Virus genome (UHGV): UHGV-0131805
Length of the DNA stretch: 16,585 nt
Strand: one strand, 5' to 3'
DNA from: a virus
Numbering within the stretch: position 1 is the first letter of the stretch; each line of letters starts with the position of its first letter. Below are positions 4,666 to 16,585 of this stretch, in pieces. The notes under the pieces were generated by a model. The model did no database searches. It worked only from the letters and a program-made list of their open reading frames with translations, and was not told where the DNA came from. Both the position numbers and the translations under genes were made by a program.

Positions 4666-5250
4666 CTACGCCTTACCCAGCAGCATCTGCCTGATACGGA
4701 ATTCGATCTGCTCGCTCATCCCGTCCACGCCGCGCAGCTCGTCGGTGACCGCGTTTGCCATCTCTTCAGCAAATGCGGCCCGGATTTCTTTTTCACGCTT
4801 AATGCTGCGCTCGGCGGCACTTTCCGCACGCTGCGCCGACAGGAGAATGTCCTTGATGAGGCGCATATCCACTTTGCTGTCGTCGTTCAGGGATTCGGTC
4901 GCGGCACGCAGGCGGCGGTACATCAGGGCGCGGGACATTTCCAGAATCAGCGCCGTGGTTTCACCTGTCGGCTTGTCCCCCAGTTCGGCCATCATGGCTT
5001 TTGTCTGCTCGCGCAAATCACGCAGATTGCGGGCAATCAGCTCGTTACGGGAGGCTTCCCGGCTGATGGCTGCCGGTGAAAGCTGCTGCTCATCCGGCAG
5101 GCCCGCCTCACGGATCAGGCGGTTGATTTCCTCGCGGATCTGGACCTGCGTCAGACGTTTTTCACGCAGCATTTCCAGCAGCGGCTTACGGATACTGTCC
5201 GGGAGCAAATCCACCTTGCGCACGCGGCCACGTGTCGGCTTGTCCATCAT
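4666..5250 (-). CDS. Terminase small subunit (Mu gp27-like, DUF3486-type)
   Basis: 194-aa basic, predicted helical protein immediately upstream of TerL; start overlaps the stop of the upstream gene. Synteny-based. Confidence 0.6.
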   Translation of the reverse strand: MMDKPTRGRVRKVDLLPDSIRKPLLEMLREKRLTQVQIREEINRLIREAGLPDEQQLSPAAISREASRNELIARNLRDLREQTKAMMAELGDKPTGETTALILEMSRALMYRRLRAATESLNDDSKVDMRLIKDILLSAQRAESAAERSIKREKEIRAAFAEEMANAVTDELRGVDGMSEQIEFRIRQMLLGKA

Positions 5251-11378: not shown

Positions 11379-11523
11379 GAATTATTTCCCCACCACATTA
11401 TTAATGACGATGTAAACGTATTTCATATTTCTTACCCCTTATTTTCTGTTTTCAGGCGCAAGCAGTCCCCTGACGCGAGCGCCATAATTAAAATGAAGTG
11501 ATATTTAATTGATTAATTCGGTG

Positions 11524-12054
11524 TTATTTATTCAGTCCGGCGTCCTGTTCAAAAGGCTCGACATAAAAACTTTCAGCGCCTTTATTCACCTTAATACCGG
11601 CAATGCCTTTCACCGCATCCGGCTCCGCCAGGACCGCTTCCTTATTCACTTCCTCTTTCGTGCGGATGAAACGCTCAAGGCCCATACGGCGCAGCATTTC
11701 AATCACACCTTCCACATCACGGCTGACGCTGCATGATGGATTTCCCAGTCGCCATGACACCGTTCCGGTGGTCAGATTAGCTGTTTTGGTTTTTCCGCCG
11801 TTCGTCAGCTCATCGCGGTTGGTTTTGCACCAGTCCTGAATCCCTTTAAAAAGCACTTTGATTTGCTTTTTAAGATTTTCAATCTGCGGCGTATAACGGG
11901 CGGTGATTTCTGCCACTTCATCATTCATTGCCGTTTCCAGGCGCAGCGCCTCTCGCTGAATATCTCCCAGGGTGCGGATATCACGGCTGACTTCTTCCCG
12001 GGTCTGCGGTGCCGCCTCGGCTGCGGCCTTTAATTTTGTAATGCGTTTAGCCAT
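11524..12054 (-). CDS. gam: Gam, host-nuclease inhibitor protein (Mu Gam / Ku-like DNA-end-binding family)
   Basis: 176 aa. Segments such as LETAMNDEVAEITARY, TNRDELTNGGKTKTANLTTGTVSWR and LERFIRTKEEVNKEA closely track Mu Gam as I recall it. AAGGA RBS. Confidence 0.8.
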   Translation of the reverse strand: MAKRITKLKAAAEAAPQTREEVSRDIRTLGDIQREALRLETAMNDEVAEITARYTPQIENLKKQIKVLFKGIQDWCKTNRDELTNGGKTKTANLTTGTVSWRLGNPSCSVSRDVEGVIEMLRRMGLERFIRTKEEVNKEAVLAEPDAVKGIAGIKVNKGAESFYVEPFEQDAGLNK

Positions 12055-12065
12055 TTTGTTTTTCC

Positions 12066-12359
12066 TTATTGCAATGTGTCAGGTGCTTTCTGCAAAGAGC
12101 GGTGCTCAATGCTGCCATTCACCCCCAGAGCCTGCATGGAACCCTGAAGTTCATCTGTCAGAAACTGAATAATTGTGGGGCTGTGATATTTAAGAATTTG
12201 CGCATAAACATCACATGGGCCTGTCGGTCTGTTCTCCGTATCACGTTCGATTTTTACAGTGGCAGTAACACCCTCCGTGATTTCCTCACTATCATTACCG
12301 GCTGGCTTTACTTCATGCATTACGTGGTCAAATTCAAAAATAACGCGAACTTTGCTCAT
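12066..12359 (-). CDS. Hypothetical small protein (97 aa), paralog 1 of a tandem pair
   Basis: Starts MSKVRVIFEF...; ends ...QALGVNGS.... Start moved from the ORF-track position to ATG 12359, 4 nt after the stop of paralog 2, with AGGGG upstream. Confidence 0.5.
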   Translation of the reverse strand: MSKVRVIFEFDHVMHEVKPAGNDSEEITEGVTATVKIERDTENRPTGPCDVYAQILKYHSPTIIQFLTDELQGSMQALGVNGSIEHRSLQKAPDTLQ

Positions 12360-12363
12360 GGAA

Positions 12364-12636
12364 TTACCCCTGTTGATTAAATTCATTACCGTTAATAACC
12401 CCGGAAGCCATGCTCCTGTCTTTCATGAATGCACCGGCTTTCATTGCCACAAGTTCAGCAAAGTCTCTGCTTTCCGCGAGCATAACCATCCCAAAAATCG
12501 TGGCTGGCCCAGCATCCTTCTTCTTTATTCCGGTTGACCGTATATCCAGACTTATCCCCATGTGCGCGCTGCCATCAGCGTTTTTACGGATAACGTCCTC
12601 CTTGTATTCGAAAATAATGCGAACAACTTTACTCAT
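12364..12636 (-). CDS. Hypothetical small protein (90 aa), paralog 2 of a tandem pair
   Basis: Starts MSKVVRIIFEY...; ends ...MASGVINGN.... Start set at ATG 12636 with GAGGA 7-8 nt upstream; the ORF-track 5' extension to 12735 is rejected. Confidence 0.5.
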   Translation of the reverse strand: MSKVVRIIFEYKEDVIRKNADGSAHMGISLDIRSTGIKKKDAGPATIFGMVMLAESRDFAELVAMKAGAFMKDRSMASGVINGNEFNQQG

Positions 12637-12710
12637 CCTCTGGTCCTCGTTTTGTTCGGATAACTGACCCGGCGTCTGACCTGATGACAGAGCCGAACCA
12701 TGAAGCAACT

Positions 12711-12941
12711 TCATACTTCCCAGTAAACCGTGCATCCGCTTATGCGGGTGGCCTTCACACGGCGGCGCAGGCCGTTGGACTTAACGGTGATTTCAATTTC
12801 CTCACCACTCCCCTGAACCTCGCCTACCGGCGGCGTGGTTTTCAGTGCAAAACGTTGCGGATAGCGCTTACTGCGTTCCAGTACCGCACCGGCAAGCTCG
12901 GTCAGGCGACGGGCGTTATTCAGTGAATCAAACAAATTCAT
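12711..12941 (-). CDS. Hypothetical small early protein (76 aa)
   Basis: GGAG 9 nt upstream of the ATG; start overlaps the upstream gene's 3' end by 14 nt. Similar in size and position to Mu kil, but no sequence evidence for that. Confidence 0.4.
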   Translation of the reverse strand: MNLFDSLNNARRLTELAGAVLERSKRYPQRFALKTTPPVGEVQGSGEEIEITVKSNGLRRRVKATRISGCTVYWEV

Positions 12942-13347
12942 AGGTGAACTCCGGTTGTATCAGTAATGGATTCATGCGCGATGCAGCCAGTTCCAGCAGG
13001 AGGCCCCGATCAACCTCACCCATCCCCGGTATTTTTCGGGTTTCGCCACGCATGATTGCCCGAAGAATGGAGTAACCATGTCGCCACTCCCGGCGATAAT
13101 CACCCGGGATCAGAAAACCAAAACGCAGGCCTTCCCATACGTCCACATCAAAGCACTCATAATCAAAACGCTGCCGGACAGATTCACACTGCTGGTCTGC
13201 ATACCATTGATACAGGTCGATAAACAGAAAACACACACCGTCACCGTTCATCAATTCATAGATATAATCACGAACCTCACAGTCATTGTTGTTAAACGCA
13301 CGAAAGCTGTGGAGAACATTGATTTCCTGCTGTATCTGCGTATTCAT
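12928..13347 (-). CDS. Hypothetical acidic early protein (139 aa), rich in aromatic and Cys residues
   Basis: ORF co-directional with the early operon. D/E-rich with several C, W, Y and F. No motif recognised. Confidence 0.5.
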   Translation of the reverse strand: MNTQIQQEINVLHSFRAFNNNDCEVRDYIYELMNGDGVCFLFIDLYQWYADQQCESVRQRFDYECFDVDVWEGLRFGFLIPGDYRREWRHGYSILRAIMRGETRKIPGMGEVDRGLLLELAASRMNPLLIQPEFTYEFV

Positions 13348-13359
13348 ATAACACCTCGT

Positions 13360-13587
13360 TTAGCTGATTCGTTTTGCACCGATAAAACGACAAATATTGC
13401 TGTAAGCTTCTTTCGCACCTTCACGATCAAGTCCTGCCGATATTGCCATTCTGGTGCGATCATTAAATTCAAAAAGTAAATCGCCACATCCTTCACTGTC
13501 AGACACGGAGACTGCTTTGACGTTATCGAAATTCACCAGGTGAAAGCGTCCGTAAATATCAGGAATATTAAATGCAATCATAATCAC
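13360..13587 (-). CDS. Hypothetical small early protein (75 aa) immediately downstream of B
   Basis: ATGA start/stop overlap with the MuB-like gene. No motif recognised. Confidence 0.45.
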   Translation of the reverse strand: MIMIAFNIPDIYGRFHLVNFDNVKAVSVSDSEGCGDLLFEFNDRTRMAISAGLDREGAKEAYSNICRFIGAKRIS

Positions 13588-14516
13588 ACCTGTGAGAGTA
13601 ATTCAGGGTTGGCATAAACCTCTTTAAAGGCCGCATTAATATGTTTTTCTGTCAGCGCCGCGCCTTCACCACTGGCGGTGATCCACGCCTGGTTAAGTGT
13701 ATGTGTCAGAACACGTAACGCTCCCGGCTTTTCAGCGATCGCCTGCATGACGGCCAACTCTGCCTCACCACTGATACCCCATGCACGGGCAATAGCCAGC
13801 ACATCGGCCTTTTTGGCCTTGCGAAGTTGTTTTGTACGGGCAAGACGGCTGAACAGGCGCGATAAATCATCAAAGGCGCGGCGTCCGCCTTTAAACAGCC
13901 CCTTTGGGTTACCGATAAGCACCATCCCGATCCCCGTGGCGTCCTGAATTGCCCGGAGTTGCTCCAGACCGTCAATACCAAGATGATCCGCCTCATCCAC
14001 AATCACCAGTCCGCGCGTTCCCATCAGGCGACGGCGGATGGCGCGGGACAGTGCCCCTTTGTTCGCGCGGGTGTAATCAATCCCCAGCGCATCGGCCAGC
14101 TCCAGCAGACACTCCGTGACGCTGGAGTGCGCGGGTGACAGGGTGATCATCCAGGTGTTTGGTTGCTCCTGGCAGTAATTACGGGCGGTGGCCGTTTTAC
14201 CTACCCCCGGCACGCCCACTATGACGTTAATACAGCCCATCAGGCGAACCGCCTGAAACAGCGCGCGCAGTTCCTGGACTGTCTGCGTTTCCACAAACTG
14301 CGGCGGTTCCGGCAGTGCGCTTTGGTTATTCCAGTTCTCATACCAGGAATGCAGGGAAGCCGCCACAGCAGCGTTATCGCCTTTATATTTTCCCTTGCGG
14401 AAAGCCGATAATGTGCCGTCAGAAATACCCGCCTCTCTGGCGATGGCATACTGCGTCAGTACGCCGCCATCAATAAGTTCATCTATGGTCTTGATTACAT
14501 CGTTAATATCAGTCAT
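13584..14516 (-). CDS. B: MuB-like DNA transposition protein B (AAA+ ATPase, target DNA activator)
   Basis: Walker A GVPGVGKT and Walker B LVIVDEADHL in the translation. Segments LPEPPQFVETQTV, LSRAIRRRL, KKADVLAIARAW and EKPGALRVL track Mu B as I recall it. Directly downstream of the transposase gene. Confidence 0.85.
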   Translation of the reverse strand: MTDINDVIKTIDELIDGGVLTQYAIAREAGISDGTLSAFRKGKYKGDNAAVAASLHSWYENWNNQSALPEPPQFVETQTVQELRALFQAVRLMGCINVIVGVPGVGKTATARNYCQEQPNTWMITLSPAHSSVTECLLELADALGIDYTRANKGALSRAIRRRLMGTRGLVIVDEADHLGIDGLEQLRAIQDATGIGMVLIGNPKGLFKGGRRAFDDLSRLFSRLARTKQLRKAKKADVLAIARAWGISGEAELAVMQAIAEKPGALRVLTHTLNQAWITASGEGAALTEKHINAAFKEVYANPELLSQV

Positions 14517-14597: not shown

Positions 14598-16585
14598 TCA
14601 GGCCAGCGGGTCATTTTCTTTTAATTTCGCTTCAAGCAGCTGTAATCCCCGCTGGAAATTACGCTCGTATTCTTCGTCAGGTTCATCATCAATCGCTGGC
14701 TGCTGAACGGTCACCGTATTACCCACAGGGCGGTATATGTTTTCCAGCCATGGCTCCTGCGGCTTGTGCTCCAGCACGTTGACCACCTCATCCTCGGCAT
14801 CACGAATTTTTTCCTCTGCGCGTTTACGCATGCCTTTAAGACGCTGCTGCTGTTTGTAGTATTCCGCGCTGACCGGGAAGGCTTCGCGTTTATTGCCGTC
14901 CCATACCGCCTCGCAAATCACGCTGCCATCCAGGCGACGCACGGTAATTCGTTCGGCATCATGAATGTCATAGCTGATAAGCACCTTACGGCCATGCTCA
15001 TCACGCAGCTCGGGCGCGTAGTAAATATTATTCAGCCAGCGTATTTCGCAGCGTCTTACAGGGCGTTCCACCATCGGCCGGAACATATCCCGCAGCTCAA
15101 CATCGGACAGCCATTCAATTTCCGTGTCCTCTTCTGCCAGGCGTTTTTTTCTGAACTCCGCCGGGCTGTAATGCTTACCGTTCGGCTTCATCGGTAATTC
15201 ATCGTGCGGCCGGTTGTTGTACCACTCAACACCGTCACGAATGGCATCAATCAGTTCAGACCAGGACGGTAAATCACGCATCGCTGACTGCTGCCGGGCG
15301 TTCAGCCGCTTACCCTGTTGCAGGGCAGTGAATGCCGAGCGTAAATCGCGGTTGGTTTTGCGTAACGTCTCGCGATCTGCACCTTTTCCGAAATAGGTGC
15401 GGTATTTACGGGCTATGCGCATCGGTAATGTGCGGTTAAGCCGTTCGATAATGCCTCGCCCCTGCGGATTCCCGGCAATTCCGGTCGGGTGATTAATCCC
15501 CAGGCGCGGCAGGATCCCCACAACCTCCTTATCCAGGATGTCGGCGGTTTCCCCCGAGCCGTTATCCGAGTAATACAGGAACGGTTTGCCGTGATGGCGA
15601 ATACCGTGCTGTATGGCCCCGGCTACGGCGAAAACATTTTCAGCCAGGTCAAGGCTCCAGCCCACCACAAAGCGCGTACCACCGTCGATAACAAAGGTCA
15701 CTTCCGGTGCAAATGGCCGCCCGTGAACCGGGTGCGCACATTTCAGCTTCATGCCGTGACCGTCACCAATCCAGACATAATTCACCGGCATTTTTGACCA
15801 GTCGCGGCGCGTGAATCCCTCAAGCGGGGGGTATTCACTGCCGGTCACCCGGCCTTTTTGTTTCACCACTTCCGGCAGTTTCTTCATTGCGCGGCGAATG
15901 GTGTCATAAGAGGGCATGATATCGAGCATATAAGGCTCATCAGCGTGCCGGTGTTGCCATTCAGCAACAAAATCCTCGTAAGCCTCGGTCATGGGGCGGC
16001 CGTTTGACTGGCGATACTGCACCAGAAAATCGGGTAGCCAGTTAATATCTTCGGCCTTTATTTCCTTGCGTTTGCCTGGCGCCAGTAAAAGCAGGCGTTC
16101 AGTAGCGTTCTGCGCCTTGTTAAAGGCCGCAATCCAGCGTTTCAGCGTGATTTCACTCAACACGCGGCTGTTTCCCTTTTTGGCGTTTGCCGTCTCAACC
16201 ATTGCCACAATGCGCTCGTCCAGCTGCGAACGTGCCAGGTTGTCAACGATAAACCGGATAGCCTTCGCGCAGCTGAAACCGGGTTGTTGTGCGACTTTCA
16301 TCACTTCGCTGACGATCGCGATTCGTGCATCAGCCACCTGACGCTGATTTTCGGTCAGGGCATTGAGGCGTTCGACCATCAGTTGTGGTGATCCGCGATA
16401 TGCCTCCACCGCATCAACCACGGCTGATGAGCGTCTGGCCTTTGTCACCACCGGAGCCGGTGATTCGTCGGCTTTTTGCGTCATCAGTTGCAGGGCGTAG
16501 CGTTCGCGTACTGCCTGCTGAACAGTTAAAGGCAAAGCTCCTATTTCACACTCTAAAACTTTCCCTTTTACCCCTGGTTTTAGCC
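14598..16585 (-). CDS. A: MuA-like DDE transposase, 5'-partial (N-terminus lies beyond the right window edge)
   Basis: DDE triad context VWIGDGHG, LYYSDNGSGE and GRGIIERLNRT. The reading frame is open from 16535 to the window end, and that in-frame extension (GVKGKVLECEIGALP) resembles the Mu A segment GVKGGKAIEYNANSLP that I recall lying roughly 35-50 residues into MuA. Confidence 0.85.
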   Translation of the reverse strand, partial: LKPGVKGKVLECEIGALPLTVQQAVRERYALQLMTQKADESPAPVVTKARRSSAVVDAVEAYRGSPQLMVERLNALTENQRQVADARIAIVSEVMKVAQQPGFSCAKAIRFIVDNLARSQLDERIVAMVETANAKKGNSRVLSEITLKRWIAAFNKAQNATERLLLLAPGKRKEIKAEDINWLPDFLVQYRQSNGRPMTEAYEDFVAEWQHRHADEPYMLDIMPSYDTIRRAMKKLPEVVKQKGRVTGSEYPPLEGFTRRDWSKMPVNYVWIGDGHGMKLKCAHPVHGRPFAPEVTFVIDGGTRFVVGWSLDLAENVFAVAGAIQHGIRHHGKPFLYYSDNGSGETADILDKEVVGILPRLGINHPTGIAGNPQGRGIIERLNRTLPMRIARKYRTYFGKGADRETLRKTNRDLRSAFTALQQGKRLNARQQSAMRDLPSWSELIDAIRDGVEWYNNRPHDELPMKPNGKHYSPAEFRKKRLAEEDTEIEWLSDVELRDMFRPMVERPVRRCEIRWLNNIYYAPELRDEHGRKVLISYDIHDAERITVRRLDGSVICEAVWDGNKREAFPVSAEYYKQQQRLKGMRKRAEEKIRDAEDEVVNVLEHKPQEPWLENIYRPVGNTVTVQQPAIDDEPDEEYERNFQRGLQLLEAKLKENDPLA

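What the first reader, a model, noticed from the sequence alone, without database searches (positions are those of the whole stretch)
12066..12636. Tandem, diverged paralogous small genes between B and gam
Two adjacent minus-strand genes encode proteins of 97 and 90 aa that both begin MSKV(V)R(V/I)IFE(F/Y), share scattered identities, and end with related ...GVNG... motifs. Otherwise they are strongly diverged. The second stop lies 4 nt from the first start. Tandem duplication followed by rapid divergence in a phage early region often marks genes in an arms race, such as inhibitors of host defence or nuclease proteins with different specificities.
Basis: seen in the sequence. Interest (0 to 1): 0.6.

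Follow-up and report, generated by a model that had tools for sequence, protein, structure and literature searches.

The report
Tandem Mu gp7 (Gnarl2)-like early genes
Two small neighbouring early genes of an E. coli Mu-like prophage are real, diverged duplicates. They belong to the family of phage Mu gp7/E6 ("Gnarl2"), a small protein recently shown to alter the bacterial O-antigen coat, so this is a new duplicated member of a known but poorly understood accessory-gene family.

Summary
Window 12364-12636 (-) encodes a 90-aa protein (W_90) and 12066-12359 (-) a 97-aa protein (W_97). They are 4 nt apart, each has its own Shine-Dalgarno, and they lie between a Kil-like gene and gam in the early operon of an E. 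coli Mu-like prophage.

The similarity is more than chance. BLASTP alone is weak. Profile-profile comparison aligns about 79 collinear columns (z about 9 against column shuffles, and z 5.9 with the shared N-terminus removed). Both AlphaFold2 models show a beta-hairpin followed by helices, but the W_90 model has low confidence.

Bridging sequences from a true Mu-type prophage and from Serratia link W_97 to phage Mu gp7/E6/Mup07. Silas et al. (Nat Commun 2025) named that protein Gnarl2. Expressing it in wild E. coli shifts the O-antigen ladder and raises T5 infection 10^5-10^6-fold. Its target is unknown.

Relatives in Mu, Serratia, Salmonella and Citrobacter carry one copy. One E. coli prophage lacks W_90 exactly, with the W_90 leader fused to the W_97 start codon.

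dN/dS is raised (0.28 and 0.35, against 0.08-0.25 for six neighbouring genes) but stays below 1. W_97 has two old allele classes that recombine.

Verdict: a new duplicated member of a known accessory family. An O-antigen function is inferred, not shown.

The parts
12364..12636 (-). W_90: 90-aa basic protein (pI 9.1), phrog_4107. Probable diverged paralogue in the Mu gp7/Gnarl2 superfamily. Found here only in E. coli Mu-like prophages.
   Evidence: ORF and sequence. PHROG match 2.9e-53. All 40 homologues found come from E. coli or unnamed metagenome records. hhalign against the superfamily gives Prob 84.9%, z 9.2. HMM hit E 2.8e-5. AF2 pLDDT 54, hairpin plus helix. pI.
12066..12359 (-). W_97: 97-aa acidic protein (pI 5.0), phrog_2230. 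Member of the Mu gp7/E6/Gnarl2 superfamily. This copy is the rarer 'type I' allele class.
   Evidence: ORF. PHROG match 5.9e-36. Bridging profile (P0092, Serratia) against the W_97+Salmonella profile gives Prob 98.5%, E 2e-15; Mu gp7 family against the bridging profile gives Prob 94.5%, E 7.5e-8. Bridging HMM hits the W_97 ORF at E 1.5e-8. AF2 pLDDT 82.3, with strands 4-21 and 24-39 and helices 48-58 and 60-77. Allele classes.
12604..12636 (-). First 11 codons of W_90 (MSKVVRIIFEY). This is the shared 5' repeat with W_97 codons 1-10, and it is strongly constrained (dN/dS 0.06).
   Evidence: Sequence. Segment dN/dS. The junction in the single-copy variant L047 lies at or next to this repeat.
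12330..12359 (-). First 10 codons of W_97 (MSKVRVIFEF). This is the second copy of the 5' repeat, about 25/30 nt identical to the W_90 copy after a one-codon gap.
   Evidence: Sequence. dN/dS 0.10 between allele classes. Alignment.
12644..12648 (-). Shine-Dalgarno (GAGGA) of W_90, 7 nt upstream of the ATG. The same leader drives W_97 in the single-copy variant L047.
12367..12371 (-). Shine-Dalgarno (AGGGG) of W_97, inside the last codons of W_90 and 7 nt upstream of the ATG. With the 4-nt spacer this suggests coupled translation.
12711..12941 (-). Upstream neighbour: a 76-aa Kil-like protein (phrog_2679; weak BLASTP match to Mu Kil). Context only.
11524..12054 (-). Downstream neighbour: a Mu Gam-like DNA-end-binding protein (PF07352, 57% identical to Mu Gam). 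Context only.
13584..14516 (-). MuB-like AAA+ transposition protein. It marks the early operon in which the pair lies. Context only.

Best explanation
The two genes are a lineage-specific tandem duplication within the phage Mu gp7 (E6/Mup07, 'Gnarl2') superfamily of about 90-aa early accessory proteins.

Shown here. Both are conserved, translated-looking genes in the early operon, in the order A, B, p75, p139 (gp8-like), Kil-like, W_90, W_97, gam. W_97 is homologous to Mu gp7 through bridging sequences. W_90 is a much more diverged copy with the same length, collinear motifs and the same predicted beta-hairpin-plus-helix layout. Mu, Serratia, Salmonella and Citrobacter relatives have one copy. 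One E. coli prophage lacks W_90 exactly, with the W_90 leader joined to the W_97 start, which places the duplication or deletion junction in the shared 5' codons.

Inferred. Like Mu gp7/Gnarl2, these non-enzymatic proteins are made early after induction or infection. They would bind a host factor and so alter O-antigen/LPS. The likely benefit is less re-adsorption of progeny phage or less superinfection. The acidic W_97 and basic W_90, together with the two recombining W_97 allele classes, would then widen or shift the range of host variants that can be targeted.

My estimates: W_97 is a superfamily member, about 0.9. W_90 is a true paralogue, about 0.75-0.8. The pair acts on O-antigen/envelope as Gnarl2 does, about 0.35-0.4.
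For: Anatomy.

Homology chain by hhalign with shuffle controls:
- Bridging set (P0092, P0095-98) against W_97+Salmonella types: Prob 98.5%, E 2e-15, z 33.
- Mu gp7 family against the bridging set: Prob 94.5%, E 7.5e-8, z 18.
- W_90 family against the superfamily without W_90: Prob 84.9%, E 6.5e-6, z 9.2.
- The same comparison with the N-terminus trimmed: z 5.9.

Other sequence evidence:
- HMMER in a database of about 1550 ORFs gives reciprocal weak hits only among these families until about E 0.9.
- Mu gp7 hits phrog_2230, the W_97 family, over its full length at E 0.009.
- P0092 occupies exactly the gp7 slot of a true Mu-type prophage, in the order kil, gp6, P0092, gp8, gp9, gam.
- The Serratia homologue lies between a Kil-like gene and Gam.

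Structure: the W_97 model has pLDDT 82 with a ββαα layout. The W_90 model has the same order of elements at low confidence.

Copy number: single copy in the Citrobacter locus and the two IMG/VR loci of the Salmonella-type protein group, L052-L054. L047 is a single-copy E. coli variant with the W_90 leader fused to the W_97 ATG.

Selection: both genes are under purifying selection, so they are real genes, but it is weaker than on their neighbours.

Function of the named relative: orf63 = NP_050611.1 = Mup07 = gnarl2. It causes an O-antigen downshift in ECOR1 and ECOR22 and a 10^5-10^6-fold gain in T5 infection (PMC12373910).
Against: - W_97 is only about 19% identical to Mu gp7. Direct profile comparisons of gp7 with the W_97+Salmonella core, and of gp7 with W_90, are not significant. 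The link is therefore transitive, and transferring function at this distance among fast-evolving accessory proteins is risky.
- The W_90 model has low confidence (pLDDT 54), and hhalign probability for W_90 is 85%, not above 95%. In the trimmed test one shuffle reached 22.0 against the real 23.3.
- Foldseek against BFVD found no viral structure match, so fold identity with gp7 could not be shown.
- The direct target of Gnarl2 is unknown, and AP-MS gave no clear pattern. The proposed mechanism is therefore vague.
- No segment has dN/dS above 1.
- W_90 alleles and W_97 classes reassort freely. This gives no support for a co-adapted pair.
Confidence: 0.6

Rival explanations
1. The genes are not paralogues. 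W_90 is an unrelated lineage-specific ORFan whose first ~11 codons were copied from, or converged on, the neighbouring W_97 (partial gene conversion or a shared translation-initiation constraint). The rest of the similarity is noise.
For: BLASTP is weak (E 0.004, 23% identity) and aligns only the N-terminal 52-56 residues, with the identities concentrated in the first 10. The W_90 HMM finds W_97 family members only at E 8e-4 to 0.75. The W_90 AF2 model has low confidence. The first 30 nt are about 83% identical while the remainder cannot be aligned as DNA. The highest trimmed shuffle (22.0) came close to the real score of 23.3.
Against: With the N-terminus removed, the remainder still scores z 5.9, with 0/150 shuffles reaching it. 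The alignment is collinear across the second strand, the conserved GP and the helix. The superfamily HMM picks out W_90 alone among 211 window ORFs. The two proteins have the same length class, the same predicted order of secondary-structure elements and the same genomic slot.
Confidence: 0.2
2. They are inhibitors of intracellular host defence or nucleases. On this view they are small anti-restriction or anti-nuclease proteins with different specificities that work alongside Gam.
For: The pair lies immediately upstream of gam (Gam protects DNA ends). W_97 is small and acidic, as many anti-defence proteins are. The region is mosaic and the alleles are dimorphic. In the 2023 preprint gnarl2 is also listed among the accessory genes that were lethal in some wild hosts but not others.
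Against: No sequence or fold match to any known anti-restriction, Acr or nuclease-inhibitor family. Adjacency to gam is not conserved: in Mu, gp8 and gp9 lie between, and Salmonella/Citrobacter relatives have DUF3164 in place of Gam. The only tested relative gave a broad, O-antigen-linked phenotype that did not correlate with any specific defence system.
Confidence: 0.15
3. The basic W_90 and acidic W_97 form an obligate heterodimer. The two diverged paralogues would then be subunits of one effector rather than two effectors with separate specificities.
For: Their net charges are opposite (+1.6 and -6.1 at pH 7). The 4-nt spacing, with the W_97 RBS inside W_90, suggests coupled and roughly equal expression. 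The two genes occur together in 42 of 43 distinct contigs and in 227 of 230 E. coli records. A long beta-hairpin fold is typical of proteins that pair their sheets when they dimerise (inference).
Against: W_90 alleles and W_97 classes reassort freely. Natural variants exist with W_97 alone (L047) or with a truncated W_90 (L040/L046). All other lineages work with one copy. No multimer prediction could be run.
Confidence: 0.15
4. They serve Mu's own DNA transactions, such as transposition or replication enhancement or regulation, as suggested by old genetically defined but unmapped functions of the semi-essential early region. On this view they do not modify the host surface.
For: The pair lies in the early operon just after A and B. 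W_90 is basic. From my own knowledge, functions such as arm map loosely to this region of Mu; I did not check this here.
Against: No DNA-binding or transposition-related domain was detected. Copy number and alleles vary among otherwise near-identical prophages, which is atypical for core replication functions. The Gnarl2 phenotype was obtained without any other Mu gene present.
Confidence: 0.07

Closest known systems
Phage Mu gp7 (E6, Mup07, NP_050611.1) = Gnarl2 of Silas et al., Nat Commun 2025 (PMC12373910)
   Same: Both are 87-97 aa single-domain proteins in the early operon between B/kil and gam of a transposable phage. They share collinear motifs: an N-terminal M-[AS]-K-V-x-[VI]-I-[FI]-E strand, a second strand, a G-[PT] turn, a hydrophobic helix and a C-terminal Gly. 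They are linked by bridging sequences (gp7 family to bridging set Prob 94.5%; bridging set to W_97 family Prob 98.5%).
   Different: W_97 is about 19% identical to gp7, and direct comparison is not significant. They fall in different PHROGs (10252 for gp7; 2230 and 4107 for the window genes). Mu has one copy, separated from gam by gp8 and gp9, whereas the window has two tandem copies directly upstream of gam. The O-antigen and T5 phenotype has been shown only for Mu gp7.
Single-copy gp7-like genes of Salmonella/Citrobacter Mu-like prophages (P0056-P0069; L052-L054) and of Serratia prophages (P0096-98; L057/58)
   Same: They are clear homologues of W_97 (25-36% identity; HMM E 1e-12 to 1e-7). 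All are 87-99 aa, lie after a Kil-like gene in the early operon, and begin with a similar N-terminal strand (MSNKAQVIFTFE or MAKVIFEF).
   Different: They are single-copy. In Salmonella/Citrobacter types the gene is followed by DUF3164 instead of Gam. No W_90-like partner is present.
Gnarl1 and Gnarl3 (small phage proteins that alter O-antigen; Gnarl3 binds GalU)
   Same: They share a functional label in the same screen: small, non-enzymatic phage accessory proteins whose expression shifts the O-antigen ladder and sensitises wild E. coli to T5.
   Different: The paper gives them one name because of their shared phenotype, and they come from unrelated lytic phages. I did not compare their sequences with the window genes. 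The GalU mechanism is shown for Gnarl3 only.
Classical anti-restriction or anti-defence small acidic proteins (Ocr, ArdA, Acr families)
   Same: They are small, in W_97's case acidic, expressed early, and encoded in variable accessory regions.
   Different: There is no sequence or fold similarity. W_90 is basic.

Membership tests
Mu gp7/E6 (Gnarl2) superfamily - W_97 | Detectable sequence homology to Mu gp7 (NP_050611.1) | tested here: met
   The link is transitive. The gp7 family against the bridging set gives Prob 94.5%, E 7.5e-8, z 18. The bridging set against the W_97+Salmonella core gives Prob 98.5%, E 2e-15, z 33. The bridging HMM hits gp7 members at E 2e-4 to 2.5e-3 and W_97 types at 1e-12 to 2e-7. 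gp7 hits phrog_2230 at E 0.009 over its full length. Direct comparison of gp7 with the core is not significant.
Mu gp7/E6 (Gnarl2) superfamily - W_90 | Detectable sequence homology to the superfamily | tested here: inconclusive
   hhalign against the superfamily gives Prob 84.9%, E 6.5e-6, z 9.2 over 79 collinear columns. With the N-terminus trimmed, z is 5.9. The superfamily HMM gives E 2.8e-5 against the window ORFs. There is no signal against the gp7 family alone. I judge membership probable (0.75-0.8) but not proven.
Mu gp7/E6 (Gnarl2) superfamily | An ~87-99 aa single-domain protein encoded in the early operon between B/kil and gam (or DUF3164) of a Mu-like transposable phage | tested here: met
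Mu gp7/E6 (Gnarl2) superfamily | Common fold | not testable with these tools
Mu gp7/E6 (Gnarl2) superfamily | Expression in O-antigen-positive E. coli downshifts the O-antigen ladder and sensitises cells to T5 | not testable with these tools
   This is an experimental phenotype, reported only for Mu gp7 itself (PMC12373910).
Known anti-restriction / anti-defence or nuclease-inhibitor families | Sequence or fold match to a described family (Pfam, NCBIfam, PDB) | tested here: not met

The most novel reading that the evidence does not exclude
The pair would be an enzyme-free 'surface-remodelling cassette' whose specificity can be swapped. After duplication, the acidic W_97 and basic W_90 would have taken on different host targets in O-antigen/envelope biogenesis, or would act as a heterodimer with a new target. 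The two ancient W_97 allele classes would be kept by balancing selection because each fits a different set of host O-antigen or envelope variants. Recombination at the shared 5' codons would let prophages gain, lose or swap these modules.
Probability: 0.15. Interest if true: 0.7.

Novelty: new member of a known kind. Interest (0 to 1): 0.42.

Why it matters
Gnarl2 (Mu gp7) is a recently described small phage protein that changes the O-antigen without any phage enzyme, and its target is unknown.

This work shows three things:
- The family extends well beyond Mu. It joins three separate PHROGs (10252, 2230 and probably 4107) and has no Pfam entry.
- It is carried by about 4% of complete E. coli genomes, many of them STEC such as O157:H7, O111 and O121.
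- In that lineage it has duplicated into an acidic and a basic copy, with two deeply diverged, recombining allele classes and natural one-copy variants.

These natural variants form a ready-made panel for mapping specificity determinants and finding the host target. If they do alter the O-antigen, Mu-like prophages could affect serotype presentation and phage susceptibility in pathogenic E. coli.

Tried and rejected
- Direct BLASTP of the window proteins against Mu gp6-gp9 found nothing for W_90 or W_97.
- tblastn of both proteins against 50,697 phage records found only two Stx-phage records that carry an inserted Mu-like phage.
- Pfam, NCBIfam and PADLOC gave no hits. The PDB sequence search gave one hit at noise level (E 0.18) for the W_97 profile and none for W_90.
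- Foldseek against BFVD and PDB gave no match at E of 0.001 or below. afdb50 was not available.
- The exhaustive HMMER search with the W_97 profile found only four distant full-length relatives. The long eukaryotic repeat proteins it also listed are spurious sums of many short stretches.
- The genome-contig scan returned a single Citrobacter locus.
- The '44% identical' W_90 homologue in L042 is an artefact of a frameshifted contig.
- hhalign of shallow family profiles against a single Mu gp7 sequence was uninformative until bridging sequences were found.
- The search for dN/dS above 1, gene-wide and in four segments, within and between allele classes, found none.
- The idea that 'GVNG' is a shared C-terminal motif was rejected because it is not conserved within the W_97 family.
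- Literature searches on the Mu semi-essential region and on Mu-like anti-defence genes gave nothing specific until the locus tag Mup07 was searched.

Full report
**What is there.** The window is the early (left) end of an E. coli-type Mu-like prophage read on the minus strand. The gene order is:
- MuA (14598-16535)
- MuB (13584-14516; PF09077 and AAA_22)
- a 75-aa protein (13360-13587)
- a 139-aa Mu gp8-like protein (12928-13347)
- a 76-aa Kil-like protein (12711-12941)
- W_90 (12364-12636)
- W_97 (12066-12359)
- Gam (11524-12054; PF07352, 57% identical to Mu Gam)
- homologues of Mu gp11 and gp12.

The whole window is about 94% identical to Mu-like prophages in some 230 complete E. coli genomes. 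They encode 90 and 97 aa, beginning MSKVVRIIFEY and MSKVRVIFEF. Four nucleotides separate the W_90 stop from the W_97 start. Each gene has a Shine-Dalgarno 7 nt upstream of its ATG, and the W_97 one lies inside the last codons of W_90. RefSeq annotates the same CDSs as hypothetical proteins.

**Is the similarity real?** BLASTP alone is marginal (E 0.004, 13/57 identities, N-terminal only). The two proteins fall into different PHROGs, 4107 and 2230, and neither has a Pfam, NCBIfam or PADLOC match. Profile methods are clearer.
- hhalign of the W_90 family against the W_97 family scores 31.1, against 11.2±2.2 for 200 column-shuffled controls.
- Against a deeper superfamily profile that contains no W_90 sequence, it gives Prob 84.9%, E 6.5e-6 over 79 collinear columns, z 9.2.
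- After removing the N-terminal 11-12 residues from both sides, the rest still scores 23.3 against 10.5±2.2. None of 150 shuffles reached that score, although the highest was 22.0.
- A superfamily HMM finds W_97 (E 6e-37) and W_90 (E 2.8e-5) and nothing else among 211 six-frame ORFs of the window.
- AlphaFold2 gives W_97 a confident model (pLDDT 82.3) with a long beta-hairpin (4-21, 24-39) followed by two helices (48-58, 60-77) and a disordered tail. The W_90 model has the same order of elements but low confidence (pLDDT 54).

I conclude that the two genes are probably diverged paralogues (about 0.75-0.8). Only one glycine is conserved there.

**What family is it?** The exhaustive HMMER search with the W_97 profile found only four distant full-length relatives, all beginning MSNKAQVIFTFE. 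These come from Salmonella/Citrobacter Mu-like prophages. There a single copy lies after a Kil-like gene and before a DUF3164 gene that takes the place of Gam.

A profile search that also contained Mu gp7 returned bridging proteins.
- P0092 (89 aa, MAKVIFEF...) occupies exactly the gp7 slot of a true Mu-type E. coli prophage, in the order kil, gp6, P0092, gp8, gp9, gam.
- P0096-98 lie between a Kil-like gene and Gam in Serratia prophages.

The chain is strong. The bridging set against W_97+Salmonella types gives Prob 98.5%, E 2e-15, z 33. The Mu gp7 family against the bridging set gives Prob 94.5%, E 7.5e-8, z 18. HMMER hits in a database of about 1550 ORFs from these regions are consistent with this. 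Independently, Mu gp7 hits phrog_2230 over its full length at E 0.009. Direct comparisons of gp7 with W_97 or W_90 are not significant, so the link to gp7 is transitive.

**What is known about that family?** Searching the locus tag Mup07 led to Silas et al. (bioRxiv 2023; Nat Commun 2025, PMC12373910). Their orf63 is NP_050611.1, Mu 4784-5047, E6/Mup07, which they named gnarl2. Expressed alone in wild E. coli, it downshifts the O-antigen ladder in ECOR1 and ECOR22 and raises T5 infection 10^5-10^6-fold. Transposon disruption of O-antigen synthesis gives the same phenotype. The authors propose enzyme-free seroconversion that benefits an established phage through superinfection exclusion or reduced re-adsorption. 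AP-MS gave no clear target for Gnarl2.

**Evolution of the pair.** W_90 homologues were found only in E. coli or in unnamed metagenome records. In 42 of 43 distinct contigs examined, and in 227 of 230 E. coli records, W_90 and W_97 occur together.

One prophage of the same lineage, L047, has the order MuB, p75, Kil-like, W_97, Gam, with W_90 precisely absent. The leader and RBS that precede W_90 in the window are joined directly to the W_97 start codon. This is the structure expected either for the state before duplication or for a deletion by unequal exchange between the shared 5' codons, which are about 25/30 nt identical. Either way, the repeat at the 5' ends marks the duplication boundary.

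Other variants carry a premature stop in W_90 (L040/L046) or a frameshift in W_97 (L031), so neither gene is indispensable.

Across 16-32 distinct alleles per gene, dN/dS is 0.28 for W_90 and 0.35 for W_97, against 0.08-0.25 for six neighbouring genes. W_97 has the highest amino-acid diversity. No segment exceeds 1, and the first 12-13 codons are the most constrained (0.06-0.10).

W_97 exists in two discrete classes, about 60% identical in protein and with pS about 0.5. That exceeds the highest pS in the flanking gam, 0.24. Recombinants such as P0044 exist. In complete E. coli genomes about 206 records carry class II and about 26 carry class I, the window's class, with nothing in between. Both classes occur in O157:H7 strains. 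W_90 alleles and W_97 classes reassort. W_97 is acidic (pI 5.0) and W_90 basic (pI 9.1).

**Interpretation.** The best-supported reading is a lineage-specific tandem duplication inside the Mu gp7/Gnarl2 family of small early accessory proteins. By analogy with the one tested member, they would bind a host factor and remodel the O-antigen/LPS. That last step is inferred from distant homology (about 0.35-0.4).

The rivals are:
- W_90 is unrelated apart from a converted 5' end (0.2).
No homology supports this, and adjacency to gam is not conserved.
- The proteins form an acidic/basic heterodimer (0.15). This fits the charges and the coupled expression but not the free reassortment or the single-copy variants.
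- The proteins have a role in Mu's own DNA transactions (0.07).

**Novelty and interest.** The family and its phenotype were published in 2023-2025, and the genes themselves are annotated hypothetical proteins in hundreds of genomes. Three things are new here:
- three PHROGs are joined into one gp7/Gnarl2 superfamily;
- the duplicated, charge-diverged pair and its junction are recognised;
- the W_97 allele dimorphism in STEC-rich E. coli is described.

I therefore class it as a new member of a known kind, of moderate interest (0.42). Its main value is as a natural variant panel for finding the still-unknown target of Gnarl2.

Noticed in passing
L047 2860-3070 (compare window 12637-12700 and 12330-12359): A natural single-copy variant of the same prophage lineage lacks W_90 exactly. 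The W_90 leader and RBS are fused to the W_97 start codon. This points to unequal exchange at the shared 5' codons, or to the arrangement that existed before the duplication.
   Followed up: yes
window 12066-12359; E. coli complete genomes: W_97 is dimorphic. About 206 E. coli records carry a class II allele and about 26 carry class I, the window's class. The classes differ by about 27% in DNA, nothing falls in the 80-90% identity band, and recombinant alleles such as P0044 exist. Synonymous divergence between the classes (pS about 0.5) exceeds that of the flanking gam (maximum 0.24).
   Followed up: partly
window 11379-11523: The 145-nt gap between gam and the gp11 homologue is an accessory-gene slot. 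It is empty in the window and in L006. Related prophages hold a 180-aa gene (L004, L005, L007, L047) or a 196-aa gene (L001, L008) there. The 196-aa protein looks related to the DUF5420-matching gene at the same position in Citrobacter L052, but I judged that by eye from the sequences and did not test it.
   Followed up: no
window 12637-12735: The W_90 reading frame stays open for 33 codons upstream (MHGLLGSMKLLHGSALSSGQTPGQLSEQNEDQR), overlapping the 3' end of the Kil-like gene. Some gene callers report 116-aa or 123-aa versions. The same in-frame leader precedes W_97 in L047. It is absent where a different gene lies upstream (L004, L007), so the 90-aa start is the conserved one. A longer isoform was not excluded.
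   Followed up: partly
window 12711-13587; Mu L003 4315-5781: Gene order between B and gam is shuffled relative to Mu. Mu has kil, gp6, gp7, gp8, gp9. The window has p75, a gp8-like p139, a Kil-like p76, W_90 and W_97, with no gp9 (D5-like regulator) homologue. By eye, p75 resembles the 70-aa protein in the gp6 slot of L055. The p139 gene is present in some related prophages and absent in others (L004, L006, L007).
   Followed up: partly
L052 3797-4435; L053 3802-4440; L054 3802-4446: The Citrobacter braakii prophage (L052) and two IMG/VR contigs whose gp7-like proteins match Salmonella sequences (L053, L054) carry a 212-214 aa gene instead of Gam directly after the gp7-like gene. The L052 copy matches DUF3164 (PF11363); the other two were not scanned. 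This suggests the two are positional alternatives.
   Followed up: no
L040/L046 (W_90) and L031 (W_97): W_90 has a premature stop at about codon 79 in one contig, and W_97 has a frameshift in another. These are either pseudogenisation of one paralogue or assembly errors.
   Followed up: no
L002 3568-3849; L004 2849-3004; L052 3226-3498: Some prophages carry an extra ~90-aa gene (MKSTITAY... in Citrobacter, 93 aa in E. coli JKHS016), or a 51-aa remnant of it, between the Kil-like gene and W_90/W_97. The window has only a 74-nt spacer there. This is another variable accessory slot.
   Followed up: no
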